DNA from: Verrucomicrobiota bacterium
Lineage (GTDB): Bacteria > Verrucomicrobiota > Verrucomicrobiia > Verrucomicrobiales > Verrucomicrobiaceae
Length of the DNA: 64,000 nt
Direction: 5' to 3'
Assembly: GCA_017301975.1 (NCBI GenBank)
Contig: JAFLEI010000016.1
Location: 58,349-122,348 of the forward strand
Below the pieces are notes generated by a model. That model was not told where the DNA came from, did no database searches, and saw nothing but the letters and a program-made list of their open reading frames with translations. Position numbers and translations under genes: made by a program. This document shows, piece after piece, positions 18,092-40,695 of this stretch. Positions within the stretch are counted from its first letter, which is position 1; the number at the start of each line of letters is the position of its first letter.

Positions 18092-19519
18092 ATGTCTGAT
18101 TCCATTCCCAATGTCCTCGCTGAACGTTACGCCACCGCCTCCATGCGCGCCCTTTGGTCGCCTGAAGGGAAAGTCAGACTGGAGCGCGATTATTGGATCG
18201 CAGTTCTAAAAGGCCAGCGCGATCTCGGCATTCCGGTGCCGGATGGCGTGATCGAAGCCTATGAGAAGGTGAAGGATCAGGTGAACGTGGCCTCCATCAT
18301 GGAGCGCGAGCGCGTGACGCGGCATGACGTGAAGGCACGCATCGAAGAATTCTGCGACCTCGCGGGCCACGAGCACCTGCACAAAGGCATGACCAGCCGC
18401 GATCTGACTGAGAACGTGGAGCAGCTTCAGGTCTTCCGCTCTCTATTAGAGGTCCGCAACAAATGCGTGGCGGCTCTCGTGGGCCTCGCACGCCGAGCCA
18501 AGGAGACGCGGGACATTCCGCTGACCGCCCGCACGCACAACGTGGCCGCGCAGGTGACCACCCTGGGCAAGCGCCTCGCGATGTTTGGCGAGGAGCTGCT
18601 CGTGGCCTTTGGCGATCTGCAGCATCTCATTTCCAGCTATCCGGCCCGTGGGCTGAAAGGTGCCGTGGGCACCCGGCTGGATCAGATCACTCTCTTTAAT
18701 GGAGACGCGAAAAAAGCGGCGGAGCTGGAGGGCAGCATCCTGAAGCACCTCGGCATGCCGGCGGCCTTCAATACCGTGGGGCAGGTGTATCCGCGCAGTC
18801 TGGACATGCAGGTGGTCGCCTCGCTCTGTCAGCTTGCCAGCGGACCGTCCAGCTTTGCGCGTACACTGCGCCTCATGGCCGGGCAGGAGCTCGCCAGTGA
18901 AGGCTTTGCGAAAGGTCAGGTGGGCTCCTCCGCCATGCCGCACAAGATGAACAGCCGCTCCTGCGAGCGCATCAACGGCCTGCACGTCATCCTCAAAGGC
19001 TACCTCACCATGGCCTCCGGTCTGGCGGGGGATCAGTGGAATGAGGGAGACGTGTCCTGCTCCGTCGTGCGCCGCGTCATGCTGCCGGACGCCTTCCTCG
19101 CCATGGATGGCCTGCTGGAAACGCTGCTCACCGTGCTCAATCAGATGGAAGTCTTCGAGGCTGTCGTGGAACAGGAGCTCATGCGCTACCTGCCTTTCCT
19201 CCTCACCACCACCGTCATGATGGAAGCCGTCAAAGCGGGCGCGGGTCGCGAGACCGCCCACGAAGTGATCAAAGAGCACGCCGTGCAGGTGGCCAGGGAC
19301 ATGCGCACCGGCAAAGTGCGTGAGAACGACCTCCTCGCCCGCCTCGTGGAAGACGTGCGCCTCACCCTCACCGCCGAAGACATGCAGCGCCTCGTGGATG
19401 CCGGCAAAGCCAACGCCGGAGACGCCCCCCAGCAGGTGGACGCCTTCTGCGAACACGTGGCCGCCATCAAGAAGGAGTACCCGCACGCCGCGAAGTATGA
19501 GCCGGGTGTGATTCTGTAG
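18092..19519 (+). CDS. purB: Adenylosuccinate lyase
   Basis: 475 aa. N-terminus LAERYATASMRALWSPEGK. Fumarate-lyase signature GSSAMPHKMNSRSCERI. Confidence 0.92.
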   Translation: MSDSIPNVLAERYATASMRALWSPEGKVRLERDYWIAVLKGQRDLGIPVPDGVIEAYEKVKDQVNVASIMERERVTRHDVKARIEEFCDLAGHEHLHKGMTSRDLTENVEQLQVFRSLLEVRNKCVAALVGLARRAKETRDIPLTARTHNVAAQVTTLGKRLAMFGEELLVAFGDLQHLISSYPARGLKGAVGTRLDQITLFNGDAKKAAELEGSILKHLGMPAAFNTVGQVYPRSLDMQVVASLCQLASGPSSFARTLRLMAGQELASEGFAKGQVGSSAMPHKMNSRSCERINGLHVILKGYLTMASGLAGDQWNEGDVSCSVVRRVMLPDAFLAMDGLLETLLTVLNQMEVFEAVVEQELMRYLPFLLTTTVMMEAVKAGAGRETAHEVIKEHAVQVARDMRTGKVRENDLLARLVEDVRLTLTAEDMQRLVDAGKANAGDAPQQVDAFCEHVAAIKKEYPHAAKYEPGVIL

Positions 19520-19543
19520 GCTTTCAGTCGATCACCCTCACCG

Positions 19544-19574
19544 CGGCGGCTTGTCTCAAGCCGCCGTTTTTTTT
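19544..19574 (+). terminator. Rho-independent terminator after purB
   Basis: gcggcggctt gtct caagccgccg followed by T8 (19567-19574), starting 25 nt after the purB stop. Confidence 0.75.
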
Positions 19575-19619
19575 GTGGCTCCTGCCTGCATCCTAATCCT
19601 GCAATTCTGGAATCTTGTG

Positions 19620-19695
19620 AATCCTGTCCAAATCAGCTTCGAGCAAAGATGAAACTGGAAGTGGCAGGTATTGCAGTGCCTGTTTGGACAGGATT
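19620..19695. promoter_or_regulatory. Inverted repeat upstream of the VOC-family gene (candidate operator or RNA stem)
   Basis: aatcctgtccaaa (19620-19632) and tttggacaggatt (19683-19695) form a perfect 13-bp inverted repeat. The flanking tgtgaatc / gattcaca extend the symmetry. It lies 57 nt upstream of ATG 19752. Confidence 0.35.
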
Positions 19696-19751
19696 AACAG
19701 GATGGCATGATTCACAGAATTATCTCAGAAGACATCCTTTCTACCACGCTC

Positions 19752-20108
19752 ATGAAAGCCTCCTTCCACTCCATCACTCCCATGATCCCCACCGGCAGCA
19801 GCCTGGCGGAGGCTCTGAGCTTTTACGCGGACCACATGGGCTTCGCCATTCTCTGGCAGGGCGAGGGCATGGCCGGCATCGGGCGCGACGGTGTGTCCCT
19901 CAACCTCATCGTGAACGACAACCAGAACTGGGCGGACAATGCGAGCTTCAGCATCGGCGTCTCCGACCTTGAGGCTCTCTACGAGGAGTATCGGGAGCTT
20001 CTCGCCCGGGTCGGCCCGCTCGAACTCAAGCCGTGGGGCAGGCGCGAGTTTCATCTCATCGCGCCCTCAGGCGTGTGCTTCCAGTTTTACCAGCGGGAGG
20101 TCGCCTGA
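19752..20108 (+). CDS. Glyoxalase/bleomycin-resistance (VOC) family protein
   Basis: About 118 aa from ATG 19752. Paired beta-alpha-beta-beta-beta pattern with ITPMIPTGSSLAEALSFYADHMGF and GRREFHLIAPSGVCFQF. Size and pattern resemble bleomycin-binding/VOC proteins. Confidence 0.7.
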   Translation: MKASFHSITPMIPTGSSLAEALSFYADHMGFAILWQGEGMAGIGRDGVSLNLIVNDNQNWADNASFSIGVSDLEALYEEYRELLARVGPLELKPWGRREFHLIAPSGVCFQFYQREVA

Positions 20109-20187
20109 CCCTGCGCTGCACGCGCGTATCCCCCCCGAGGTATTTGGAGAATTTGGCGAAGTTTCTCCCGCTGGCGGCGCGGGGACA

Positions 20188-20266
20188 GGAAAGTACTCTC
20201 GAGCTTTAGCTCGTTCTGGGAGGCTCCGCGCATTCCAGAGGGAGCTAAAGCTCCCGAGTACTTTCC
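20188..20266. repeat. Long intergenic hairpin (25-bp arms)
   Basis: ggaaagtactctcgagctttagctc (20188-20212) pairs with gagctaaagctcccgagtactttcc (20242-20266). The arms are complementary at 23 of 25 positions, with a 29-nt loop. Confidence 0.6.
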
Positions 20267-20314
20267 CAGAGTGAACTGCTGCGCAGCCGCAAAGCCAACC
20301 TCATCAGTGCTTTA

Positions 20315-20400
20315 TTACCCCTCGCTCTCCCCGCTCTTCGGCTCACGCACCACGCGGTCCACGGCGTGCTGCGTCGAGGTTCTCCTTGCACCACATTCCG
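20315..20400 (-). pseudogene. Ghost copy of the 3' end of the parC-like gene
   Basis: 20323-20370 is 48/48 identical to 22809-22856, the true 3' end of the gene at 22802-24835. The minus-strand translation ...TSTQHAVDRVVREPKSGESEG* compares with ...IITKHAVDRVVREPKSGESAE*. Similarity decays outside the 48-bp core. Confidence 0.75.
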
Positions 20401-20434
20401 CAGTCGTGGACTTCTCGGGAGTCGCCCCACTTTC

Positions 20435-21251
20435 ATGCCTCGCCTTGTTCTCACTGAAGCCCAGAAGCAAGCCATCCGTCAGGCTCAATCCCCCGAAGCC
20501 GCGTGCCATCTGGTCTGTGATGTCGCCGACGATGCTTTCTTCTCTGGGAATCCTGACGACGTCGCGGGCTGGATTCGCGATGTGCTTTGCGTCGAGACTT
20601 TCTTCGGGGCCATGTGCGATGGCGGAGTGGTCACCTTGGTTTGACTGGGATCACGGTCGTTTGGCGCACCTGGTGCCAGACGCCCTGCGTGCGGTGGGTC
20701 TTCCCGAGTGTGCGCCCGGTGCGGAAAAGGCATTGGCGGTCCATTTTCAACCTCCTTACCCTGCCACCATTCAGGCGTGGGACGAGGCCATCGAGCACAT
20801 TCGGGATGCTCAGCTCGAGGAGGATTTCGACGCCTCGGCTTATGACGCCATTGAGCAGGAATTCTTTGCCCTCTATCATGCCGACAAAACCTGCTTCCGC
20901 ACGAAGCTGCACCGTTACGTTCTCGATCACTTCGAGACTGAGGACATCGAACTTTTACAGCACGAAATGGATGAACAACTGCGTGCGGGCTATGTCAGCC
21001 GGGATGGGTTTCGAAGGCTGTGTGATGCCGAATGCTATGGAAACGTCTCAAGTCTCGGTGCGCTGAGGAAGTGGTTGAGCTATCTGGAACAGCCATTGAA
21101 TGATGGCAAATGCATCGAGATTGAGGGAGGGCGCTCTCTTTCCACCCGTCCTGAGCTGATGGCATGGATCAAAGAAAACTTCCGCGATGCCTACGCCTGC
21201 TTCTACAAAAATGATGGGACTGGGCAGGTGGATGAGCAGCACAACGCCTGA
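20435..21251 (+). pseudogene. DUF4375/DMP19-like protein with extra C-terminal domain, interrupted by a frameshift near 20625-20645
   Basis: Frame 1 (ATG 20435) reads MPRLVLTEAQKQAIRQAQSPEAACHLVCDVADDAFFSGNPDDVAGWIRDVLCVETFFGAMCDGGVVTLV*. Frame 2 continues WFDWDHGRLAHLVPDALRAVGLPECAPGAEKALAVHF...FDASAYDAIEQEFFALYHADKTCFRTKLHRYVLDHFE. Joined, the two halves resemble the DUF4375 pattern (NGGF.QFF.N..G ... IGA....ll.kA) as I recall it. Confidence 0.45.
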
Positions 21252-21257
21252 TCACTC

Positions 21258-21665
21258 ATGACCGTCCGCTTCGCCAATTCGTATGTGGAAAAGCTCTTTG
21301 CAGAGCGAGACCTGCCCGGACTGCACCACCTTATCGGCGTGGTCGGTGCGGAACGTCAGTTGTCAGAGCAGTTCTGACTTTTCTGCCGCTTGCTCGAATG
21401 GTCCGGCTCCACGAGATCGGGAGTGTGGCAGTATTATGAAGGTTTGTCGGAGGACACGTTTGTGAGGATGAGCCAGGCTTTGGGCCGGTTCGGGCTTTCT
21501 GAGATCTCTCAAAGATACCAGGCCGGCAGGGATGCATGGAACGGCCCAGATCAAGCAGCGAGTCTCGATGCGTGGATGGATGCCCATGAGCAGCAGATCC
21601 ACAGCGCCGCCTTCGAGTTGATCGCGGCAAGAAAGGACGAGTTGTGTTGTGAGGCTGCTGCATAG
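21258..21665 (+). pseudogene. Second DUF4375-like ORF carrying an in-frame TGA at 21375-21377
   Basis: ATG 21258 MTVRFANSYVEKLFAERDLPGLHHLIGVVGAERQLSEQF-TGA-LFCRLLEWSGSTRSGVWQYYEGLSEDTFVRMSQALGRFGLSEISQRYQAG...LDAWMDAHEQQIHSAAFELI. It is one frame throughout; I checked it codon by codon. Confidence 0.45.
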
Positions 21666-21734
21666 AAGTTCGCGATTGCTTCGTTGGGCGCGGTGGCTGA
21701 GCTTGGGGGGAGACGACTCAAGCCTCCCGAAAAC

Positions 21735-22010
21735 ATGAATCCAACGAGAGCATCATCGCTTCCAACACGGATTGGCTGGGGCGTCGCAATCGCTTTCATC
21801 GTCGCCGCGCTCTTGCCGTTTGCTGTCATCGGAGGGACGTGGGGCATGGTTTGGTTCTATCTCACAGCCCCCCTGTCGCTGGCTGTTGAGGCGACATTTG
21901 GGATCGACGGCGAGTCCTGCATTCTGATTGTTCTTACGTCCGTGAGTTGTGCCACAGCATGGGCGGCAGTTGCTTATGCTCTCACCAGGACGATTCAGCG
22001 ATGGAAATGA
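21735..22010 (+). CDS. Small integral membrane protein
   Basis: ATG 21735 MNPTRASSLPTRIGWGVAIAFIVAALLPFAVIGGTWGMVWFYLTAPLSLAV...ILIVLTSVSCATAWAAVAYAL. Three hydrophobic segments. Lies inside the low-GC islet. Confidence 0.5.
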   Translation: MNPTRASSLPTRIGWGVAIAFIVAALLPFAVIGGTWGMVWFYLTAPLSLAVEATFGIDGESCILIVLTSVSCATAWAAVAYALTRTIQRWK

Positions 22011-22120
22011 GCTGCAAATGCTAGGCCTGAATGGCACTTCGGAATGTTTCTGGTACCCAACAAGGTTGTTTGAAGTCCTCGACAGAGACGGGTCGCATCG
22101 AGTAATTTGGCCCAACAAAA

Positions 22121-22729
22121 ATGACACGCTATCGAGTAATCGGACTGGAGATGGGTGCAAAGCGCATCTTGGAATGGTTTGAAGGAGAGTTGATCGGCGA
22201 TGACGACCTCAAAGACCGGTTTCAGAGAATGTGGGAATCGGTCGATCATGGGAAGTATCGCGAAAAATTGCCCGTTCATCTGCGAGAATCCTGGACTTAT
22301 TACCTGGCGAAAGAACTTCTTTCCAAGGTCTTTGAGGAAACACTGGATGTTGAAAGAGCGCACATATCCACAGAGCAAAGACTGCAGGAGTGGGCCGATG
22401 CATGGAATTCACATGGCCGCGACCATCATTATACGATTGATGAAATGCGTAAAATCGAGGAGGAGCAGAATTGGAGTGATCACCACGGTCCACCCTATAA
22501 GTGGAGAGAAATCGAGTCTGTTCTCAGCGGGAAGATCAAAATTTTTGAGGATGTCGGCCAGCCACCCGAAGATCGCCCCAAATGCCTTGAATGCCTGGCT
22601 CCCATGGAATGGATTTACTTTTCAAGCTCCCCGGCAACATGGGCAGGGGACTGTGGAAGAGCAGGCTGGACGGCGATTTGTAAAAAATGCAAAACCTGGA
22701 GAGCATGCCGCGTCTCCGTGATGAATTAA
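22121..22729 (+). CDS. Hypothetical protein with C-terminal zinc-ribbon-like Cys pairs
   Basis: 202-aa ORF in visibly lower-GC DNA. The C-terminus is PKCLECLAPMEW...CGRAGWTAICKKCKTW (CxxC ... CxxC). An overlapping upstream ORF (22018-22182, ...FWYPTRLFEVLDRDG...) may be a displaced 5' part. Confidence 0.5.
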   Translation: MTRYRVIGLEMGAKRILEWFEGELIGDDDLKDRFQRMWESVDHGKYREKLPVHLRESWTYYLAKELLSKVFEETLDVERAHISTEQRLQEWADAWNSHGRDHHYTIDEMRKIEEEQNWSDHHGPPYKWREIESVLSGKIKIFEDVGQPPEDRPKCLECLAPMEWIYFSSSPATWAGDCGRAGWTAICKKCKTWRACRVSVMN

Positions 22730-22801
22730 CCAGACCAGTAAGCGGATGCAGGCAACCGGCGTTCCGCCAGTGCCTGATCCTTGCTGCTGGACGAATCGCT
22801 T

Positions 22802-24835
22802 TTACTCGGCGCTCTCCCCGCTCTTCGGCTCACGCACCACGCGGTCCACGGCGTGCTTCGTGATGATGTTCCCCTGGGACTCGCGGCCTTTGATGGCGAT
22901 GGAGTTGAAGGGGAATTTGATGGAAAGGTTGCGCAGGTAGAGGGCGGGCTTGAGGTGGACGATGACGTTTTGGGCGTTGGAGTCTTCTTCGGTTTCGTGG
23001 CGGATGAAGTACAGGACGTTGCTGCCGGGCGTGCCTTTGGTGAGGACGTATTCCTTGTCGCGGGTGACGCCGCCGATGCGGAAGCGCTTGGCCAGCAGGC
23101 CGCCCTGGCGGCCGTCGCGGTAGATCATGGTATAAACGGCGCTTTCGTCCTTCTTGAAAAGGTTCACGTGGAGCGGGTTCTTGCCCACGAAGAACTTCGC
23201 CGCAGCCTTGGTCACGCTCATGTTGCCCTCGCGGGTGAAGAAGAGCACGTCGTCCAGCGGGGAGCACTTGCAGATCGGGTCGCCTTCGCGCTTGAGGCTG
23301 GTGCCGGCAAAGCCTTCCTTGGCGTTGAGATACAGCGTCTCGCCCTGCACGATGACTTCGGCGGCGGCCACGCGGTCAAAGCCGCTCACCACCGTTTTGC
23401 GCTCGCGGCCGGGGCCGTAGGTCTTTTTGAGCTCTTCAAAGTGGCGGATGGTGTACTTGGTGAGGCCCTTGAGGAACTTCTCGGCCTGATCGATCTCCTC
23501 CTCCAGCTCGCGGATGTGCTCGTCGGCCTCGAAGCTGTTGAACTTGGAGATGCGCTTGATCTTGATCTCGGTCAGGCGCGCCACGTCGTCATTGGTGACT
23601 TCGCGCTTGAGCACATGGAGGTGGGGCTTGAGGCCCTTCCAGATGGCCTCCATCACAGCCTCCCAGGTCTCGGCTTCTTCGATGCGGCGGTAGATGCGGT
23701 TCTCGATGAAGATCTTTTCCAGCGAGCTGAAGTGCCACTTCTCGTTGAGTTCGCCAAGCAGGATGCCCAGCTCTTCGCCGAGGATCTTTTTGGTGTTCTC
23801 CGCGCTGGCCCTGAGCAGGTCGTTCACGTTCATGAACTGCGGCTTGTCGTCCTTGATGACGACGGCGTTCGGTGAGAGTGAGATCTCGCAATCCGTGAAG
23901 GCGTAGAGCGCCTGGATGGTCTGGTCCGTGTCCGTGCCTACGGGGAGATGCACCACGACCTCCACCTTGTCTGAGGTGTTGTCCTCGACGCGGGCGATCT
24001 TGATTTTGCCCTTCTCATTTGCAGCCACGATGCTGTCCATCACGCCGCCCGTGGTGGTGCCGTAGGGGATCTCGGAAATGATGAGGATGTTCTTCTTCGG
24101 GCCTTCCTCGATCTTAGCGCGAATGCGGATGCGGCCGCCGCGCATGCCGCCATTGTAGTCGCTGGCGTCCATGATGCCGCCGGAGATGAAGTCGGGCAGC
24201 AGGTTCACCGGCTCATCCCGCAGTGCGGCGATGCTGGCATCACACAGCTCAATGAAATTGTGCGGGAGGATGCGGCAGGAAAGACCCACGGCGATGCCTT
24301 CCACGCCCTGTGCGAGCAGCAGGGGGAACTTCACCGGCAGCGTCACCGGCTCCTTGTTGCGGCCGTCATACGAGGCCGCCCATTCGGTGACCTTCGGGCT
24401 GAAGACCACATCCAGCGCGAATTTGGACAGGCGCGCTTCGATGTATCGGGGAGCAGCCGCGTTGTCGCCGGTGAGGGTGTTGCCCCAGTTCCCCTGGGTG
24501 TCGATGAGCAGGTCCTTCTGGCCGAGCTGCACCATGGCATCGCCAATGGAGGCATCGCCATGCGGGTGGTATTTCATCGTGTTACCCACCACGTTCGCCA
24601 CCTTGTTGTACCGGCCGTCTTCCAGCTCGTCCATGCTGTGCAGGATGCGGCGGTGAACGGGCTTCAGACCATCATTGATGTGGGGGACGGCGCGCTCAAG
24701 GATGACGTAGCTGGCGTAATCGAGAAACCAATCTCCATAGAGCGTGTCCACCGGCTTGTGCTCCACGGGGGCGGCGGATGGCAGGATGGGGGAGAAGGCT
24801 TCTTCAGCGGATTTTTTGGAGGACTTTTTGGCCAC
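22802..24835 (-). CDS. parC: DNA topoisomerase IV subunit A (Bacteroidetes/PVC-type ParC; GyrA/ParC family)
   Basis: DYASYVILERAVPHINDGLKPVHRRILHSM, KYHPHGDASIGDAMVQLGQ, and AAAPRYIEARL (catalytic Tyr). The likely start is GTG 24835 (VAKKSSKK). The track ORF reaches ATG 25003, but that extra 56 aa looks non-coding and overlaps the divergent giant gene's ORF. Confidence 0.85.
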   Translation of the reverse strand: MAKKSSKKSAEEAFSPILPSAAPVEHKPVDTLYGDWFLDYASYVILERAVPHINDGLKPVHRRILHSMDELEDGRYNKVANVVGNTMKYHPHGDASIGDAMVQLGQKDLLIDTQGNWGNTLTGDNAAAPRYIEARLSKFALDVVFSPKVTEWAASYDGRNKEPVTLPVKFPLLLAQGVEGIAVGLSCRILPHNFIELCDASIAALRDEPVNLLPDFISGGIMDASDYNGGMRGGRIRIRAKIEEGPKKNILIISEIPYGTTTGGVMDSIVAANEKGKIKIARVEDNTSDKVEVVVHLPVGTDTDQTIQALYAFTDCEISLSPNAVVIKDDKPQFMNVNDLLRASAENTKKILGEELGILLGELNEKWHFSSLEKIFIENRIYRRIEEAETWEAVMEAIWKGLKPHLHVLKREVTNDDVARLTEIKIKRISKFNSFEADEHIRELEEEIDQAEKFLKGLTKYTIRHFEELKKTYGPGRERKTVVSGFDRVAAAEVIVQGETLYLNAKEGFAGTSLKREGDPICKCSPLDDVLFFTREGNMSVTKAAAKFFVGKNPLHVNLFKKDESAVYTMIYRDGRQGGLLAKRFRIGGVTRDKEYVLTKGTPGSNVLYFIRHETEEDSNAQNVIVHLKPALYLRNLSIKFPFNSIAIKGRESQGNIITKHAVDRVVREPKSGESAE

Positions 24836-25025
24836 GGCGAAAAGGGGGAAAGAACAGGGGCGGCGAGAATAGACAGTGCCGGTGGGAGTGCAAGGGCTCG
24901 CAGCGCGGATGGGTGAACTATCAAGGTCTGTGAATAGTTCGGAGAACGGTGGCTCTCTTACAATCAACTGAATTGAGGAGCGCCCAGATGGTCGCTTGTT
25001 CACAGCTTTGAAAATCTGCTCATAT

Positions 25026-28000: not shown

Positions 28001-31000
28001 CGCAGCCGACAGCCCCGGCACGGCCTTCTTTGCAGGTGCGGTGGATGAAGTCACGCTGCATCAGGCCCCCTTGTCCCAGCCCGACATCCTTGCGCTGCGC
28101 GATCTGCGCCACGCCACCAGTATCGTGCCGCAGAATCTCTCGCCACAGATCACAAACCCGGGTGCGCAAGCTTCGCTCATCGGCGCGGTGGTGTCCTTGC
28201 CCGTCACGGCGAATGATCCAGAGAACGATCCCATCACCTTCAGCGCCACGGGGTTGCCCACCGGACTTTCGATCTCGCCGGGTTCCGGAGTCATCTCGGG
28301 TTCTGTGACGGTGGCTGGCACGTTTAATGCCACCGTTATGGCCAGCGATGGCATCAGCGCACCTGCCACCGCCGCCTTCGCCTGGAACGTCTCCGCAGGG
28401 CTCACGCTGCAGCCACTGGCCGCCGCACCGAAAGCCACAGGCTCTGCGCTCACCTTCACCGCGCAATCCGCGAACGGCATCAATACGCGCTACAAATGGA
28501 ACTTTGGCGATGGCACGCCTGAGACCGCATGGCTCACGACCACGAGCATCGCGCACACCTACGCCGGACCGGGCCGCTATCTGGTGACTCTCACCGCCAC
28601 CGATGACACCGGCATCACGATCACCAGTACCTTCTATCAGGCGGTGTATGCCGCACTCACCACACGCAAGCCCGCCGCCTCCAGCAGCATCGTCTATGAG
28701 CATCCAGCCACCGGCAATGACCGCGTCTGGTGTGTGAATCCGGACAACAACAGCGTCACCGCCTTTGATGTGGTGACGCGTGCACGCTATGCCGAGATCA
28801 CCGTGGGCACCGCTCCACGCAGCCTGGCGCTGGCACCGGACGGCAGGCTGTGGGTGACGAATGTGGAGACGGGAACGATCAGCATCATCAACACCACGAC
28901 TCGTGCAGTCGCCGCCACGGTGACGCTTGCCTATGGATCACGTCCGTTCGGCATCGTCTTTGATCCTGCGGGCACGGCCGCATGGGTGACTCTGGAAAGC
29001 TCTGGGCGCGTGCTGAAGCTGAACCCCAGCACCGGAGCCCAACTCGCTTCGATCGATGCCGGCGGCCCTGTGCGGCATCTCTCCATTTCCGCCGACAGCG
29101 CACGCGTGTATGCCTCACGCTTCATCACGCCACGCGTGGCCGGTGAAAACACCGCCACACCGATGCTCACGGGCGCAGGTGGTCAGGTGGTCGTCATCGG
29201 CACGGTGGCGCTTGCAGTGGAACGCACGATTTTGCTCAATCCCAGCACCGCTGCGGACACCTCCACTTCCGCACGTGGTCTGCCAAACTATCTTGGTGCT
29301 GCCGTCATCTCCCCCGACGGTCTCTCCGCCTGGGTGCCTTCAAAGCAGGACAATATCCAGCGTGGCATGCTGCGCGATGGCCAGCCTTTGAACCATGAAA
29401 ACAGCGTGCGTGCCATCGTCTCGCGCCTTGATCTCACTGCGCAGACGGAGCACCTGCCTTCACGCGTGGACATCGACAACGCGGGCATGCCCAGCGCCGC
29501 AGCGTTTGATCCGTATGGCATCTACGTCTTCACCGCGCTCGAAGCCAGCCGCGAGGTCGCGATTCTCGATGCGTGGTCACATCAAGAAATCACCCGCTTT
29601 CCCGCAGGCCGCGCACCGCAGGGCGTCGTCACCTCGCCGGATGGCAGCACGCTGTATGTGCAGAACTTCATGGATCGCACGATCACCGTGCACGATGTCA
29701 GTGGCATCACTCAGGGCGGCAACATCGCGCCAGTAACCACGGCCACGCTCAATGCCGTCACCACGGAAAAACTCACCGCCCAGGTGCTGAAGGGGAAACA
29801 GCTCTTCTACGATGCGCAGGACCCGCGCCTCGCGCTGCAGCAGTACATCAGCTGCGCCGTCTGCCACAACGATGCCGGACACGATGGCCGCGTGTGGGAT
29901 CTCACCGGCTTCGGTGAAGGCCTGCGCAACACCATCACGCTGAAAGGCCACGCCACTCACGGCATGCTGCACTGGACCGGCAACTTCGATGAAGTGCAGG
30001 ATTTCGAAGGGCAGATCCGTGCCCTGGCCGGCGGCACCGGACTCATGACAGACACGCAGCTCAACACCGGCACGCGCAACCAGCCGCTCGGCGATGCGAA
30101 GGCGGGAGTGAGCGCCGATCTCGATGCGCTGGCCGCGTATGTAAAATCCCTCACCGTCAACGGCAACAGCCCGAGCCGCACCAGCAGCGGCGCACTGACC
30201 ACGGCAGCCACAGCGGGGCAACAGGTCTTCCGCTCGCAAAACTGCGCCTCCTGCCACAGCGGGGTGAACTTCACCAACAGCGCGCTCAATGTCTTTGCCA
30301 ATATCGGCACCATCAAACCCGCCAGCGGCAAACGCCTCGGCGCGGCGCTCACCGGTCTGGATGTGCCCACGCTGCGCGGGAGCTGGGCCACGGGGCCGTA
30401 TTTGCACGATGGCTCTGCGGCCACGCTTTCCGACGCCATCACCGCGCACAGCGGCGTGACGCTGACGGCCACGGACTTGTCCAACCTCGCTGCGTTTGTC
30501 GCCAGCATTGACGATGCCCCCACCACGGCACCTTTGCCATTCACCGTCGCACTCACCACCGCCGCCACGAATGTGACCACCTCATTCAACGTCACGGTGG
30601 CCTTCAGTTCCTCGGCCTCAGGTTTCACGCTCAGCGATGTCGTCGTCACGAATGGCGTTGCCTCCACCTTCAGCGGCAGCGGCGCGAGTTATACCTTCAG
30701 GGTCACCCCCACCGCTGCAGGTTTGGTCACCGTCAGTGTTCCAGCCAGTGCGGCCACAGACAGCACGAGCCTGGGCAACTCCGTCTCCAATCTGCTCAGC
30801 GTGACTTATACGGACACCACGCCGCCGACAGTCGCGCTCACCACTCCGGCCACCACCGTTGCCACGCCCTTTGTCGTCACCGCCACCTTCAGTGAAAACG
30901 TCACCGGCCTGCTCGCTGCCGAATTCGCCGTCACCAATGGCAGCGTCACCGCCTTGTCATCCGCTGGTATGGTGTGGTCTGCCACCGTCACACCCACCGC

Positions 31001-34000
31001 TGCAGGAGCCGTGACTGTGAGGCTTCCCGCAGGCATGGCGCAGGATGCCTCGGGCAATCCGAACACGATTTCCAACTTGCTGACGGTCACCTACGCTCCG
31101 GTCATCGTGGGGCAGACCGTGAGAATCCAGGCGGAGGATTTTGACGAAGGCGGGGAAGGGGTGGCCTATCACGATGCTGAAACCATCAACATCGGCGAGG
31201 TTGTTTCCGGCCTGCATTACCGCACCACCGGAGTCGACATCGAACCTTCCAAAGACACGGATGGCACGCCCTCCATCGGCTGGATCACGCCTGGCGAATG
31301 GCTGCGCTACACCACCATTCTCCCATCAGGGAGCTACAACTTCAGCGTGCGCGTGGCCACATCCTATGCAGGTCCGGTTCCGGTCCGCGTGCTGATCAAC
31401 GGCACTCTCGCCACGACGATCAATGTCACCGATACGGGGGGCTTTTATTCCTGGAAAACCTTCTCCGCCACAGGACTCACCCTGCCTGCGTCTGCCGTCG
31501 TTCGCATCGAGTTTCCAAACGGCAATCTCAACTTCAACTGGATGGAGTTCGTCAACACCAGCAGCCCGCCCGACACCACGCCACCAGCGGTCACACTCGC
31601 CACGGGTTCCGCCAGTGTGTCTGCGCCATTCACCGTGAGCGCCGCCTTCAGTGAAGCCGTCACCGGAGTCGCGTTGACTGATTTCACAGTCACCAATGGC
31701 GTGGCTTCAGCGTTGAGCGGCAGTGGTGCAACCTACAGCGTCACCGTCACACCCACAGCCAATGGAGCTGTGACCGTGGCCATGCCCGCGGGTGCTGCTG
31801 CAGACGCCGCCAACAATGCGAGCCTCGCGTCAAACACCCTGAGCGTGACCTACACCGCGCCCGTGCCTGCGCCTACGATTCAGCTCAGCACTGCCTCGTC
31901 GAATGTAACAGGTCCCTTCACGGTGAACGCAGTCTTCAGTCAATCCGTCACCGGCGTGGCTTTGAATGATTTCATCATCACCAATGGGGCGGCCTCAGCT
32001 CTCAGCGGCAGCGGCGCCACCTACAGCATTCTTGTCACACCCACGGCGGCTGGAGCCGTCACCGTCAGTGTGCCCGCCAATGCTGCCACCAACGCCACGG
32101 GCGGAGCCAACACGGCTTCGAATCTGCTCACCGCCACTTACACACCTCTGGACACCACGCCGCCTTCAGTCGCGCTAACAACTCCGGCCAGCAGCGTCAC
32201 CGCGCCGTTTGTGGTCACGGCCACTTTCAGTGAATCCGTCACCGGAGTCGCCTTGAATGACTTCACGCTCACCAATGGCGTTGCTTCCGCTTTGAGCGGC
32301 AGCGGCACGACCTACAGTGTCACCATCACACCCGCAGCCAATGGCGCTGTGACCGTGGCACTGCCTGTCGGCGCGGCCTTTGACGCCGCCAGCAATGCGA
32401 GCCTGGCTTCCAACACCCTCAGCGTGACCTACACCGCGCCCCTGCCTGCGCCCACGGTGTTGCTCAGCACCGCCTCGTCCAATGTGACGGGTGCCTTCAC
32501 GGTCAATGCCGTTTTCAGTCAATCCGTCACCGGCGTCGCATTGAATGATTTCACCATCACCAATGGTGCGGCCTCCGCACTGAGCGGCAGCGGTGCCACC
32601 TACAGCATTCTGGTCACTCCTGCGGCGGCTGGAGCCGTCACTGTCAGAGTGCCTGCCAATGCGGCCACCAACGCCACGGGCGGAGCCAACACGGCTTCGA
32701 ATCTGCTCACCACCACTTATACGCCTCTGGACACCACGCCGCCTTCAGTCGCGCTGACCACTCCGGTCAGCAGCGTCACCGGGCCGTTTGTCGTCAATGC
32801 CACGTTCAGCGAGAGCGTCACTGGTCTGCTCGCTTCCGAGTTCACCGTTACCAACGGCACAGTCACTGCCTTGTCCTCCGCCGGGGCTGCATGGGCAGCC
32901 ACGGTCACGCCCACGGCAGCGGGCAATGTCACCGTCAGAATCCCCGCAGGCGTGGCGCAGGATGCCGCTGGCAATCCGAACACAGTGTCCAATCTCATCA
33001 CTGTGAGCTACACACCTGTGGTCAACACCAACGGCCTCACCGGAGACTACTACATCGGTAAAAACTTCGAGCAGTTCAGCTTCACGCGCATGGAGTCCAC
33101 GGTCAATTACACCTGGGGCACCGGCAGTCCAGATCCACGCATTCCTGCCGATGGCTACAGCGTGCGCTGGCATGGATACCTCATTCCTCGCTTCACCCGG
33201 ACCTACACCATCATCCCTGTCACCGATGACGGCGTGCGTCTCTGGGTCAATGGCCAGCAGGTCGTCAATGATTGGAATAATCACGGCGACACCTGGAACA
33301 ACGGCGTCATCGCTCTGCAGGCCGGCGTGGCCGTCCCTGTCGTCATGGAGTACTACGAAAGCACTGGCGGCGCCACCGCCCGGCTGCTCTGGGAATGCCC
33401 CGGCCAGACGCGCGAGGTGATCCCGCAAAGCCAGTGGCTCGTCAATGCGCCTGCGGCTCCGGCGGCCTCGCCGAACACCATCGTGCTTGCCTCCATCATT
33501 CCCGGCACCATCGGTCTCCCTAACAACCTCGCCACGACCAACAGCGATGAAGACAGCGCTTCGGACCTTCTTGAAGTCGCGCTCGGCACCGCGCTCACCA
33601 GCGGCATCACCCGCCCCGGTGAAGGCTTGCAGTTGGTCACGCGCGGCAACAGCAGCGTCGATGCCACCCTGCTGCGCCCGTCAGGTCAGGGCACCTTCAC
33701 CTTCAGGCTCGAAAGCAGTGGCGATTTGATCAACTGGTCCCCGCTGGTGGCGGCACCGGCAGTCTTCGCTGAAGGCAATGGATGGGAGCGGGTGACGTGG
33801 CCGGATCTCCAGTCTCTCCCCGGGCAGAGCATTGAGCGTGGCATCATCCGTCTGCGCATCACTCAAACCAACGGCGGCAGCGCCACCAGTTTGCCGTTGG
33901 GCTGGCAGCAGACCACGCTCAATTCGGGCACCCAGACCTATGGCCTCAATCTCAACCATGAGGCGCTCTTCACCGGTTCGGTCAGCAGCGCCACCGCCGC

Positions 34001-38217: not shown

Positions 38218-38332
38218 TCAAGGCTCCTTCAAAGCCGGTGGCCGATGACTCTGGATCTGCGCCTTAAAGTCTCCGAGGCTGTTCCAATGCGTGGGCGCAT
38301 TGAGGTCGACCTCAGCGATGGCCAGCGTGCCA
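38218..38332 (-). pseudogene. Ghost copy of the 3' end of the carbon-nitrogen hydrolase gene
   Basis: 38251-38332 matches 39397-39478 at 78 of 82 positions. The minus-strand translation GTLAIAEVDLNAPTHWNSLGDFKAQIQSHRPPALKE(P)* equals the last 38 aa of the intact gene. All 11 nucleotide differences I counted are synonymous. Confidence 0.8.
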
Positions 38333-38391
38333 CCTTCATCAAGATGCCGCAGAGGGCCAGCCCTTCCATCTGGATCATTCCAGCGCCGTGA
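38327..38391 (+). pseudogene. Ghost copy of the 3' end of the giant gene, abutting the hydrolase ghost
   Basis: 38327-38391 matches 34771-34835 at 50 of 65 positions, in the same frame and with the same TGA. RATFIKMPQRASPSIWIIPAP* compares with RATFIKMPPAGSPVVWIIPPP*. Confidence 0.65.
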
Positions 38392-39366: not shown

Positions 39367-40695
39367 TCACTCCTTCAGCGCAGGAGGCCGGTGGCTCTGG
39401 ATTTGCGCCTTAAAGTCTCCGAGGCTGTTCCAATGCGTGGGCGCATTGAGATCGACTTCCGCGATGGCCAGCGTGCCAAACACATCCGCCTTTGCCAGCA
39501 CATCGCCATAGTGATCAAAGATGCCTGAGATCATCCACTGGTTCTTGGTGGCGTCCGTGTAGGTGCTGCTGACGATGTAGACGTGATTTTCGCAAGCGCG
39601 TGCAGCGGCGAGCATGGGATTGCAGCCCCACACCGGCCAGGCGATGACTTCGGCTCCCTTGATCGTGAGCGCGCGGGCGACTTCAGGGAAGAAGCCGTCG
39701 TAGCAGACCATCATGCCCACTTTGCCAAAGCGCGTGTCGAAAACCGGGTAGTCATGGCCGGGCGTGATGCCAGACTCGATCTCGCCACGCGGCAGGGTCA
39801 CCTTCCGATACTTGCCCACCAGCGTGCCATCCGGGCCCAGCAGCGCAGAGGTATTGTACAGCGTCTTGCCCTCACGCTCCACGAGGCCGGCGACGATGTA
39901 GAGATTGTGCTCCTTCGCCAGCTTGCCGAAGTACTCCGTGCTGGGCCCGGGCACCGTCTCGGCACAATCGGCCATCGTCTTGCCTGTGCCGTAGTAGGTG
40001 AGCGTCTCGCCGAGCACCACAAGATCAGCCTTCTGCCTGGCGGCCTCGGCAATGAGCGGCGCATACTGCGGCGGCTTGTCAGCAGGGTTCTTACCGTCTT
40101 TGGGCTGAAGGTGAATCGTGGCCAGTTTGACCTTGCGTGGCGCAGGGGCTGGCACGGCGGCGAGTGAGACATCACTCCACTCCACCCGAGCATTCGCCGC
40201 CCATTGCAGGTAGAGCTCGATCTTCGCCTGCCTGGCCTTTACCGGCGCACGCAGGGTGCTTCCGCAATGAATCCACTGGTTCGCTTCGCCCTCAGGCACA
40301 TGCGGGTACTCAGGCTCGGCGCGTGGGATGCTGCCCTTCGCGTAGCCTTGCTTCGCAGGTTCCTCCCAGCTCACGGGCTTGCCGTTCTCATCCTGCCACA
40401 AAATGCGGGCATACACGCTGCGACGCGCCGTGGGCATGGCGCTGGCTTTTTTCCATCCGCTGAACTGGTAGTGCTGACCGCCTTCCACCGGCAGCGTGCG
40501 CGTCCAGCAGCCGATCCATTGCTCACCCTCGCCCGTCTCCAAAATGAGCGCGCCTTTGCCCGCATGGCCGCCGTCCTGGCTTTGCACTGCGGAGGGCTTT
40601 GCTTCATCGCGTGGAGACCAAAGCGACCAGCCTTCGGAGACAGCCGCATGGGAAGCGGCGGCGAGGAGACAGAGGACAAGAGTCTGAAGTTTCAT
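39367..40695 (-). CDS. Secreted carbon-nitrogen hydrolase (nitrilase superfamily) with N-terminal beta-sandwich-like domain
   Basis: ATG 40695 gives the signal MKLQTLVLCLLAAASHAAV. CN-hydrolase triad context: DLVVLGETL (Glu), GKYRKVTLP (Lys), MMVCYDGFFPE (Cys). Confidence 0.85.
   Translation of the reverse strand: MKLQTLVLCLLAAASHAAVSEGWSLWSPRDEAKPSAVQSQDGGHAGKGALILETGEGEQWIGCWTRTLPVEGGQHYQFSGWKKASAMPTARRSVYARILWQDENGKPVSWEEPAKQGYAKGSIPRAEPEYPHVPEGEANQWIHCGSTLRAPVKARQAKIELYLQWAANARVEWSDVSLAAVPAPAPRKVKLATIHLQPKDGKNPADKPPQYAPLIAEAARQKADLVVLGETLTYYGTGKTMADCAETVPGPSTEYFGKLAKEHNLYIVAGLVEREGKTLYNTSALLGPDGTLVGKYRKVTLPRGEIESGITPGHDYPVFDTRFGKVGMMVCYDGFFPEVARALTIKGAEVIAWPVWGCNPMLAAARACENHVYIVSSTYTDATKNQWMISGIFDHYGDVLAKADVFGTLAIAEVDLNAPTHWNSLGDFKAQIQSHRPPALKE

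What the first reader, a model, noticed from the sequence alone, without database searches (positions are those of the whole stretch)
20315..22856. 2.4-kb low-GC islet inserted at the 3' end of the parC-like gene, bracketed by a perfect 48-bp direct repeat
20323-20370 and 22809-22856 are identical (48/48). The right copy is the genuine C-terminal coding sequence (…HAVDRVVREPKSGES…). The left copy is a truncated ghost with its own stop (20315) and decaying similarity beyond the core.

The DNA between them has visibly lower GC, especially 21.9-22.7 kb. It holds only small or disrupted genes:
- two DUF4375-like ORFs;
- a 3-TM protein;
- a zinc-ribbon protein.

No integrase or transposase is present. 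It is therefore either a decayed integrative element that used the gene's 3' end as its att site, or a second product of the mechanism behind the ghost at 38.2 kb.
Basis: seen in the sequence. Interest (0 to 1): 0.65.

Follow-up and report, generated by a model that had tools for sequence, protein, structure and literature searches.

The report
Old parC-end ghost bounding gene slot
A 48-base perfect repeat of the end of the topoisomerase gene parC brackets a small, low-GC set of accessory genes, but comparison with relatives shows an old, clade-wide variable gene slot reshuffled by ordinary recombination, not a recently arrived mobile element.

Summary
The right copy is the real parC 3' end and the left is a 60-nt ghost with its own stop. 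The DNA between them has the lowest GC in the window and carries no integrase.

The organism is a Prosthecobacter-like verrucomicrobium. In about ten related genomes and metagenome strains, the ghost and the adjacent DMP19/DUF4375 gene are shared by a whole clade (parC at least 91% identical). Their divergence parallels that of the core genes. The ghost is decayed or truncated everywhere except here. One relative has two ghosts. A related roughly 40-nt leader follows each ghost, in front of three different cargo genes.

The genes between DMP19 and parC differ from lineage to lineage. No relative carries a recombinase there.

Best reading (about 0.5): an old displaced parC end now serves, together with parC, as homology arms for cargo gain, loss and exchange. 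The perfect 48-mer is a recent refresh from a genuine parC end.

Rival (about 0.25): ancient accretion of integrase-less site-specific elements.

This is an ordinary kind of variable locus, and interest is low to moderate.

The parts
19752..20108 (+). VOC/glyoxalase-family gene forming the left flank. The longest ORF starts at 19707; relatives start at the Met corresponding to 19752.
   Evidence: PF00903 hit. Orthologs sit in the same position in L096, L098 and L099. GC3 is 0.82, native-like.
20121..20177 (.). 's1' short repeat element downstream of VOC.
   Evidence: It is orthologous to L098 8827-8883, where it abuts the ghost remnant. Related copies flank the DUF7832 gene of L096 in inverted orientation.
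20188..20266 (.). Palindromic hairpin with 37-nt arms; a dispersed REP-like repeat.
   Evidence: Inverted repeat I1, 84% complementary. Metagenome contigs give it many different flanks and a depth spike, 732 against about 20-30 in X9. In L002, L048, L084, L096, L098 and L103 a homologous hairpin lies next to the real parC end.
20267..20314 (.). 48-nt spacer between the hairpin and the ghost stop codon.
   Evidence: Hairpin, spacer and repeat core (window 20172-20370) align as one block at 80-81% with the DNA that flanks the REAL parC end in L096 and L098.
20315..20374 (-). Ghost of the last 19 codons plus stop of parC. The exact 48-nt core is 20323-20370.
   Evidence: Orthologous ghosts adjoin DMP19 in L001, L096, L098 (scrambled), L099 (16 nt left) and the X9 strain (4 substitutions plus 1 indel).
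20375..20434 (+). Leader 1, between the ghost edge and the DMP19a start. Contains CTTGCACCA at 20385-20393.
   Evidence: Conserved in L096, L098, L099 and L103. This is the only occurrence of the motif in the window. A related leader follows the second ghost in L096 and X13.
20435..21251 (+). DMP19/DUF4375-family gene 'a', a pseudogene here through a +1 frameshift (extra T at 20636/7).
   Evidence: PF14300 hit. Intact 266-271-aa orthologs at 85% identity sit at the same locus. The frameshift is shown in alignment A2 and by strains lacking 1 nt at 20636.
21258..21665 (+). 135-codon reading frame 'DMP19b', interrupted by an in-frame TGA at 21375-21377.
   Evidence: Only a faint PF14300 hit (E 0.076) and no BLASTP similarity to DMP19a. 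Position 21377 A>G gives TGG in X13, X15 and X17. X9 has a 307-nt deletion here.
21653..21715 (+). Remnant of a second ghost-edge plus leader unit (leader 2), upstream of the membrane-protein gene.
   Evidence: It aligns with the ghost-edge and leader of ghost 1 and of L096 ghost 2 (A3). In an X13 contig a parC-end ghost plus TGCACCGATCGCT joins directly to window 21690.
21735..22010 (+). 91-aa small hydrophobic protein with about 3 predicted membrane spans.
   Evidence: ORF. No family hit. The hydrophobic segments were judged by eye only.
22121..22729 (+). 202-aa protein with C-terminal CxxC...CxxC (zinc-ribbon-like) and the lowest GC in the islet (49%).
   Evidence: ORF. The family is rare, with 11 homologues. 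L048 has an 84% ortholog in a different position in its slot. Elsewhere it lies beside restriction-modification and toxin-antitoxin genes.
22802..22861 (-). Genuine 3' end of parC, the right repeat copy. The exact core is 22810-22857.
   Evidence: The tail ...SGESAE* is identical to that of the closest relatives L084, L086 and L089.
22802..24835 (-). parC-like gene (DNA topoisomerase IV/gyrase subunit A family). The longest ORF runs to 25003; the likely GTG start is 24835.
   Evidence: PF00521 E 1e-105. The start is inferred from the L048 ortholog. Sequence identity to individual relatives varies in blocks along the gene.

Best explanation
The two repeat copies mark the ends of a clade-wide accessory-gene slot downstream of parC in a Prosthecobacter-like lineage.

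**Origin.** In the ancestor of the clade, an insertion carrying a DMP19/DUF4375 gene displaced the last ~20 codons of parC, leaving a non-functional 'ghost'. How that first ghost formed is not determined. It could have been one-sided homologous plus illegitimate recombination, as at 38.3 kb, or something else.

**Turnover.** Since then the ghost on one side and parC on the other have acted as homology arms. Ordinary RecA-type recombination, within a genome or with DNA from related strains, adds, deletes, duplicates and swaps cargo genes between them. Occasional illegitimate joins bring in new genes.

**This window.** The ghost looks pristine because its repeat core, tail, 48-nt spacer and hairpin were recently copied or recombined in from a genuine parC end of an islet-free type allele. 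The crossover ended at the old ghost edge, at 20371-20374. No dedicated recombinase is involved. The cargo is now decaying: DMP19a is frameshifted and the next ORF has a nonsense codon.

**Shown:** the repeat; the shared, decaying ghost; a second ghost; the variable cargo; the pseudogenes; the composition shift.

**Inferred:** recombination as the driver; the direction of the transfers; the origin of the first ghost.
For: 1. **The ghost-leader-DMP19 junction is orthologous** in the window, L001, L096, L098, L099, L103 and the X9 strain. DMP19 is 84-89% identical at the nucleotide level, and parC in the same loci is 91-94% identical. All these lineages fall in one parC clade, while L002, L048 and L003 lack the junction.
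2. **The ghost decays elsewhere.** L099 keeps 16 nt, L098 is scrambled, L001 has indels, and X9 has 4 substitutions plus 1 indel. Real parC copies in the clade match the window core at only 41-47 of 48 positions. A 48/48 match in an old ghost therefore requires later homogenisation.
3. **The ghost-side block is a real parC-end context.** Window 20172-20370 (hairpin, spacer, core) is one block orthologous to what flanks the REAL parC end in L096 and L098.
4. **Ghosts recur and come from other alleles.** L096 has two ghosts. Its second ghost matches its own parC end at 36/48 but an L001-type allele at 43/48. X13 has a ghost directly upstream of the membrane-protein gene. The window keeps a remnant of that unit.
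5. **Cargo between DMP19 and parC differs in every lineage**.
6. **Recombination between lineages is visible in parC.** One 150-nt block is 100% identical to L048 against a 90% background.
7. **There is no recombinase or mobile-element signal.** No recombinase was found in any islet, there were no phage, plasmid or viral matches, and no other lineage among 91 loci has a parC-end duplicate.
8. **A second locus in the same window shows the same kind of product.** The site at 38.2-38.4 kb is an allele-fusion ghost junction with GCCA microhomology. Empty and single-insert alleles of it exist in other strains.
9. **There is a published precedent.** Sequential displacement leaving 3' remnants and orphan genes has been described, with homology-facilitated illegitimate recombination proposed as the mechanism (PMC5361080).
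Against: - A related ~40-nt leader with CTTGCACC follows both independent ghost types and precedes three different cargo genes. A conserved site-adjacent arm is also what a family of site-specific elements would show.
- The ghost 5' edges lie within about 12 nt of each other. That is unexpected for independent random illegitimate joins, although it is expected if ghost 2 arose from ghost 1 by unequal crossing-over.
- The islet-free allele with the ...SEG* tail that this model needs was not seen directly. The only candidate is one low-depth X7 contig, which may be a k-mer artefact.
- No experiment or read-level data shows recombination happening.
- Natural competence of these bacteria is not established here.
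Confidence: 0.5

Rival explanations
1. Ancient accretion of integrase-less site-specific elements, comparable to CIMEs (cis-mobilizable elements, which have att sites but no integrase of their own).

In this reading the parC 3' end is an attB. Small elements that share an att core plus an adjacent arm (the leader) integrated one after another, mobilised by a recombinase encoded elsewhere or since lost. The ghosts are old attL-type sites, and the present structure is their decayed remnant.
For: - Direct repeats of a gene's 3' end with a restored reading frame are the classic footprint of such elements.
- Two ghosts occur in tandem in L096.
- A homologous leader lies next to each ghost and precedes different cargo: DMP19a, the membrane protein, and a 107-aa gene.
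- All cargo genes share one orientation.
- The cargo has low GC.
Against: - No recombinase was found in the window's islet or in any of about ten related islets.
- No phage, plasmid or viral contig carries the core or the islet.
- No other lineage among 91 loci has a parC-end duplicate.
- The ghosts decay freely.
- No conserved arm is present on the tail side.
- The oldest ghost is the perfect one, so later homologous exchange is needed under this model as well.
- Cargo differs at single-gene scale rather than as whole elements.
Confidence: 0.25
2. A purely internal origin. Tandem duplication or unequal crossing-over within one genome duplicated the parC end and adjacent DNA, and divergence and deletions followed. 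No horizontally acquired DNA was involved.
For: - Leader 1 and leader 2 are paralogous.
- The window has two adjacent ORFs with DMP19 hits, one of them faint.
- Unequal crossing-over between ghost and real copies predicts exactly such tandem units.
Against: - The cargo has clearly lower GC and GC3 than the core genes.
- The zinc-ribbon family is scattered across phyla.
- L096 ghost 2 resembles another lineage's parC allele more than its own.
- The cargo sets of different lineages are unrelated to one another.
Confidence: 0.1
3. An assembly artefact. The chromosome would have an empty site, and the 2.49-kb segment would be a separate circle or lie elsewhere, wrongly threaded through the 48-bp repeat.
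For: With k=31 the assembly graph is ambiguous. Logan contigs break at the repeat, and the middle piece is exactly 20341-22839.
Against: - The islet and its flanks have equal depth in three independent runs: 8.5 vs 7.2-7.4, 14.3 vs 13.3-15.1, and 6.4 vs 6.4.
- In relatives whose repeats are imperfect, contigs span ghost-to-DMP19 and cargo-to-parC (X9; L001, L096, L098 and L099).
Confidence: 0.03

Closest known systems
Sequential (C-terminal) displacement arrays: Vibrio cholerae T6SS effector-immunity clusters and rhs loci (PMC5361080, and Jackson et al. 2009 as cited there)
   Same: - An incoming module is anchored by homology in the conserved 5' part of a gene.
- The old 3' end is pushed downstream as a remnant.
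- Repeated events build arrays of remnants plus orphan small genes.
- No integrase is involved.
[quoted passage not shown]
   Different: - The displaced gene here is a housekeeping topoisomerase subunit, not a polymorphic toxin.
- The new and old ends encode essentially the same peptide, so nothing functional is swapped.
- The ghosts are only ~60-75 nt long.
- The cargo genes are not demonstrable immunity genes, although SUKH-1, DUF7832 and DMP19-type genes do occur in the slot in relatives.
Minimal mobile elements of Neisseria (Saunders & Snyder 2002, cited in PMC1538595; description from my own knowledge)
   Same: - A site between two conserved genes holds different genes in different strains.
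- There are no mobility genes.
- Exchange is attributed to homologous recombination in the conserved flanks.
   Different: - One 'flank' here is a short duplicated fragment of the other flank gene.
- That gives direct repeats, and so allows duplication, deletion and insertion into naive sites.
- Competence and uptake in this organism are unknown.
Integrase-mediated genomic islands and cis-mobilizable elements (CIMEs) at the 3' ends of genes (description from my own knowledge)
   Same: - Direct repeats derive from a gene's 3' end.
- The gene is restored by element-borne sequence.
- Tandem accretion is possible.
- Cargo has lower GC.
- Elements without their own integrase exist.
   Different: - No integrase was found in any member or relative.
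- The repeats are not maintained.
- The element boundaries are not discrete.
- The structure is as old as the clade.
Integron gene-cassette arrays
   Same: Single-gene-scale cargo, all in one orientation, each preceded by a recurring boundary sequence.
   Different: - There is no intI or attI nearby.
- The boundary is a fragment of a host gene plus a leader, not a palindromic attC.
- At most two units were seen.

Membership tests
Site-specific integrative element / genomic island at a gene 3' end (including CIME) | Direct repeats (att) derived from the target gene's 3' end flank the element | tested here: met
   48/48 exact repeat, and a 60-nt pair that includes the stop codons.
Site-specific integrative element / genomic island at a gene 3' end (including CIME) | A tyrosine or serine recombinase is encoded in or beside the element, or is demonstrably acting in trans | tested here: not met
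   No such domain was found in the window's islet or in the slots of L001, L048, L096, L098, L099 and L103. A trans-acting enzyme cannot be tested with these tools.
Site-specific integrative element / genomic island at a gene 3' end (including CIME) | A discrete element: all-or-none presence with the same boundaries in different strains | tested here: not met
   Relatives share the ghost and DMP19 but differ gene by gene in the remaining cargo. The zinc-ribbon gene sits at a different position in L048. The hairpin lies on different sides of the cargo in different lineages.
Site-specific integrative element / genomic island at a gene 3' end (including CIME) | Excision products: an empty site and a circular junction | tested here: inconclusive
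   One X7 contig joins 20322 to 22810 at depth 2.5. With k=31, shorter than the 48-nt repeat, and near-zero depth at the islet edges, it may be an artefact. No circular junction was seen. No raw reads were available.
Sequential displacement / homology-facilitated illegitimate recombination arrays | A 5'-truncated remnant of the gene's 3' end lies downstream of the intact gene, separated by inserted genes | tested here: met
   Ghost at 20315-20374. Its similarity to parC ends abruptly at 20371-20374.
Sequential displacement / homology-facilitated illegitimate recombination arrays | Successive events give more than one remnant | tested here: met
   L096 has two ghosts. An X13 contig has a ghost upstream of the membrane-protein gene. 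The window keeps a remnant of that unit at 21653-21715.
Sequential displacement / homology-facilitated illegitimate recombination arrays | The remnant derives from a different allele than the resident gene end | tested here: met
   L096 ghost 2 matches its own parC end at 36/48 and the L001 allele at 43/48. The window ghost tail is ...SEG*, whereas the clade-typical real tail is ...SAE*.
Sequential displacement / homology-facilitated illegitimate recombination arrays | Microhomology at the illegitimate junction | not testable with these tools
   The donor sequence for the parC ghost junction is unknown. At the 38.3-kb ghost pair in the same window, a 4-nt GCCA overlap is visible.
Minimal-mobile-element-type hotspot | Conserved flanking genes with different gene content between them in different strains, and no mobility genes | tested here: met
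   The parC and purB (or VOC) flanks are conserved. Contents differ in L001, L003, L048, L096, L098, L099, L103 and the window.
Minimal-mobile-element-type hotspot | Exchange by homologous recombination after DNA uptake | not testable with these tools
   Only indirect evidence: mosaic identity blocks in parC.
Integron-like cassette array | An adjacent integron integrase and palindromic attC sites at cassette ends | tested here: not met
   No integrase was found. No inverted repeats lie at the cassette boundaries. The boundary unit is a parC fragment plus a leader.
DMP19 / DUF4375 (PF14300) protein family, for ORF 20435-21251 | A significant match to the family profile | tested here: met
   The broken ORF scores 23.9 bits against a cut-off of 25. 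The read-through protein finds 37 homologues, all carrying PF14300, with full-length orthologs at 85% identity.

The most novel reading that the evidence does not exclude
The unit 'last ~60-75 nt of parC plus a ~40-nt leader with CTTGCACC' is the recombination site of a family of small, integrase-less gene cassettes. A recombinase encoded elsewhere would insert them one after another at the 3' end of parC. This would be a host-gene-targeted, integron-like cassette system in Verrucomicrobia.
Probability: 0.08. Interest if true: 0.7.

Novelty: new member of a known kind. Interest (0 to 1): 0.3.

Why it matters
This case shows that a perfect direct repeat at a gene's 3' end around low-GC DNA is not, on its own, evidence of a recent mobile element. 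Here the structure is as old as the clade, and the perfection is secondary.

It also illustrates how a short duplicated gene end can act as a portable homology arm. That arm lets accessory genes be added to, lost from or swapped at a housekeeping locus without any dedicated recombinase. The same genome has a second such site at 38.3 kb.

If the conserved ghost-plus-leader unit turned out to be a true recombination site, the locus would be a new cassette-capture system. The present evidence makes that unlikely.

Tried and rejected
- **Phage, defence and curated family libraries.** PHROGs and PADLOC gave no hits for the islet proteins. The NCBIfam call failed on a bad frame and was not repeated.
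- **Mobile-element collections.** The islet has no blastn match in phage or plasmid collections, and the repeat core is absent from viral contigs.
- **RNA families.** Rfam gave only a sub-threshold suhB/mmgR hit on the purB terminator. The promoter and terminator scan was at chance level.
- **Ghost extension.** Extension of the ghost beyond 20374 is not significant against shuffles, and alignment of GGTGCAAG to the parC sequence AGTCCCAG is weak.
- **Hairpin as an empty-site marker.** I rejected this because the hairpin is a dispersed repeat. In L098 and L103 it lies between DMP19 and parC, so a parC-hairpin adjacency (L002, L084) does not prove an empty site.
- **X7 'empty-site' contig.** Kept only as inconclusive, because of k-mer ambiguity.
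- **First model tried.** I initially proposed that the real end was donor-derived and the ghost native. I dropped this firm direction after the closest relatives all showed the ...SAE* tail.
- **Other lineages.** A self-ghost scan of 91 loci found none outside this clade.
- **Second DMP19-like ORF.** It shows no similarity to DMP19a by BLASTP.

Full report
**1. The observation**

The exact 48-mer CGCTCTCCCCGCTCTTCGGCTCACGCACCACGCGGTCCACGGCGTGCT occurs at 20323-20370 and 22810-22857 and nowhere else in the window. The gap-free pair 20315-20374 / 22802-22861 is 56/60 identical.

The right copy is the end of a 677-733-aa ORF on the minus strand. That ORF has a full DNA_topoisoIV domain (PF00521, E 1e-105) and ends ...TKHAVDRVVREPKSGESAE*. 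The left copy closes a 64-codon ORF ending ...TQHAVDRVVREPKSGESEG*.

Similarity stops abruptly 4 nt past the core. Anything further is no better than shuffled sequence. Each of the two tails is one codon deletion away from a ...SAEG* allele seen in other strains.

The DNA between the copies is 54.7% GC against 60.6% for the window, the lowest of all 2.4-kb windows. Its GC3 is 0.53-0.66 against 0.75-0.87 in core genes.

**2. Gene content**

All islet genes lie on the plus strand, convergent with parC.

| Coordinates | Gene | Evidence |
|---|---|---|
| 20435-21251 | DMP19/DUF4375 gene 'a', broken by an extra T at 20636/7 | |
| 21258-21665 | ORF with an in-frame TGA that is TGG in related strains; only a faint DMP19 hit | |
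| 21735-22010 | 91-aa hydrophobic protein | |
| 22121-22729 | 202-aa CxxC...CxxC protein of a rare, phylum-scattered family; elsewhere it sits beside restriction and toxin-antitoxin genes | |

There is no integrase or transposase. There were also no phage, defence, plasmid or viral matches.

To the left of the ghost lie a 48-nt spacer, a 79-nt hairpin, a short repeat element ('s1'), a VOC/glyoxalase gene and then purB (adenylosuccinate lyase).

**3. Is the arrangement real?**

The sequence comes from activated-sludge and wastewater metagenomes. Logan k=31 contigs break at the 48-mer, so that assembly graph alone cannot separate 'integrated' from 'empty site plus circle'.

Two lines of evidence settle it:

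- The islet has the same depth as its flanks in three independent runs.
- In relatives whose repeats are imperfect, single contigs span ghost-to-DMP19 and cargo-to-parC.

The arrangement is therefore chromosomal.

**4. Relatives**

The organism is Prosthecobacter-like (Verrucomicrobiaceae). The region downstream of parC is highly variable.

| Locus or strain | Arrangement downstream of parC |
|---|---|
| L003 | parC abuts purB |
| L048 | hairpin, a lipoprotein, the zinc-ribbon gene, a SUKH-1 gene, purB |
| L098 | VOC, s1, scrambled ghost, intact DMP19, hairpin, spacer, parC |
| L099-L102 | VOC, a 16-nt ghost remnant, DMP19, a 123-aa gene, parC |
| L103 | DMP19, a 130-aa gene, hairpin, parC |
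| L001 | a decayed ghost beside a truncated DMP19, plus TPR, DUF7832 and other genes |
| L096 | VOC, DUF7832, truncated ghost 1, DMP19, a 112-aa gene, ghost 2, a 107-aa gene, hairpin, spacer, parC |
| X9 strain (groundwater) | the window's architecture, with a ghost carrying 4 substitutions and an indel |

On a parC tree, all ghost-and-DMP19 carriers form one clade (parC at least 91% identical). The sister lineages lack both. DMP19 is 84-89% identical at the nucleotide level across these lineages, and parC in the same loci is 91-94% identical.

The ghost-DMP19 junction is therefore old and inherited. Only the stretch between DMP19 and parC is the fast-changing slot.

**5. Why is the old ghost perfect here?**

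Real parC ends within the clade match the window core at only 41-47 of 48 positions, and every other ghost is decayed. A 48/48 match therefore needs recent exchange with a genuine parC end.

In support, window 20172-20370 (hairpin, spacer, core) is a single block orthologous to the DNA that flanks the REAL parC end in L096 and L098. The simplest history is a homologous crossover in the core. It would have joined an old ghost edge (with its leader and cargo) to the real parC end of an allele reading VOC, s1, hairpin, spacer, parC.

That crossover could have been a gene conversion or replacement of the ghost side. Equally, it could have been the insertion of the whole cargo array into a naive chromosome, using the donor's ghost as the left arm and parC as the right arm. 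In both cases the outcome is the structure seen in the window.

A low-depth X7 contig joins 20322 to 22810 and may be that naive allele. It could also be a k-mer artefact.

**6. Recurrence and the boundary unit**

L096 ghost 2 is closer to another lineage's parC allele (43/48) than to its own (36/48). It is thus a displaced foreign or former end.

An X13 contig has a parC-end ghost followed by TGCACCGATCGCT and then window 21690, the leader of the membrane-protein gene. The window keeps a remnant of this unit at 21653-21715.

The leaders after ghost 1 and ghost 2 are paralogous. They share CTTGC and GCTGAG.TTG.GG, match at 23 of 34 positions, and the shuffle test gives p of about 0.002. The ghost-plus-leader unit therefore precedes at least three different cargo genes.

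Unequal crossing-over between the ghost and real copies explains a duplicated unit. A family of site-specific elements sharing an att arm would explain it as well, so this remains the main open point.

**7. The 38.2-kb ghost**

At 38224-38332 there is a ghost of the 3' end of the CN-hydrolase gene, 91% identical to 39370-39478. It abuts, back to back, a ghost of the 3' end of the giant gene at 38326-38391, which is 77% identical to 34770-34835. The two overlap by 4 nt (GCCA).

Other strains carry different alleles of this locus. One has the two genes directly convergent (X9). Another has only the 1089-aa TPR gene between them, and its giant gene has the ghost-type end (X11).

This is an illegitimate fusion of two alleles, the kind of event that could also have created the first parC ghost.

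**8. Comparison with what is known**

The closest published pattern is sequential displacement in V. cholerae T6SS clusters and rhs loci. [quoted passage not shown]

The locus also resembles neisserial minimal mobile elements, in which variable genes sit between conserved flanks and are exchanged by homologous recombination (Saunders & Snyder 2002, cited in PMC1538595; the description is from my own knowledge).

It fails two defining tests for an integrase-borne island: it has no recombinase and no discrete boundaries.

**9. Verdict**

The ghost is a displaced parC end, and the DNA is an insertion relative to outgroups. It is not, however, a recently decayed integrative element.

It is a new member of a known kind of recombination hotspot. 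Interest is about 0.3.

Noticed in passing
window 38224-38391, with partners at 34770-34835 and 39370-39478: Two 5'-truncated gene-end ghosts lie fused back to back with a 4-nt GCCA overlap, between two TPR genes. One is the CN-hydrolase 3' end (91% identical); the other is the giant-protein 3' end (77%). Other strains have an empty allele (X9), or only the 1089-aa TPR gene with a giant gene whose real end is of the ghost type (X11).
   Followed up: partly
window 20188-20266; also L002, L048, L084, L096, L098, L103: The 79-nt hairpin is a high-copy dispersed palindromic (REP-like) repeat. Metagenome contigs give it many different flanks, and depth spikes about 25-fold in X9. Its position relative to the cargo differs between lineages.
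   Followed up: partly
window 20121-20177; L096 7365-7420 and 8410-8465; L098 8827-8883: A second short repeat family ('s1', ...GAAGTTTC...CCCCCC...) is present. In L096, inverted copies bracket the DUF7832 gene. X13 and X15 contigs show an opposite-strand joint at 20119/20165.
   Followed up: no
window 19595-19712: An inverted repeat between purB and VOC (arms 19603-19632 and 19683-19712) also has multiple different flanks in metagenome contigs. It is another dispersed repeat.
   Followed up: no
window 20435-21251 and 22802-24835; L096, L098, L099-L103: A DMP19-family gene is conserved convergent to parC across the whole clade, while its neighbours change. DMP19 of Neisseria is a DNA-mimic protein (PMC3384305). 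A functional link between a DNA mimic and topoisomerase IV is conceivable but untested.
   Followed up: no
window 22802-22815 and the equivalent positions in relatives: The last few codons of parC are hypervariable among close relatives: SAE*, SAEG*, SEG*, TEG*, SE*, SA*, TA*, SS*, AAS*. The differences are mostly whole-codon indels in a GAG/GGG/GCC-rich stretch.
   Followed up: partly
window 22802-24850 compared with L048 and L084: Identity along parC is mosaic. One 150-nt block is 100% identical to L048 against a background of about 90%, and another is 100% identical to L084. This indicates recent recombination between lineages.
   Followed up: partly
L048 13477-14070; L001 14648-15187; L096 7786-8325: The same slot in relatives holds a SUKH-1/SMI1_KNR4 gene and DUF7832 genes. 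These are families often annotated as immunity-type proteins, so the slot may collect orphan immunity-like genes.
   Followed up: partly
window 30812-33019: The 3279-aa giant protein gene contains four or more tandem repeats of about 290 nt at 60-79% identity. It begins with a galactose-oxidase-like N-terminus and carries many Ig-like domains.
   Followed up: no
window 19512-19581: There is a sub-threshold Rfam hit to suhB/mmgR (26.7 bits against a gathering score of 41). It overlaps the strong intrinsic terminator of purB at 19543-19567 and is probably chance.
   Followed up: no
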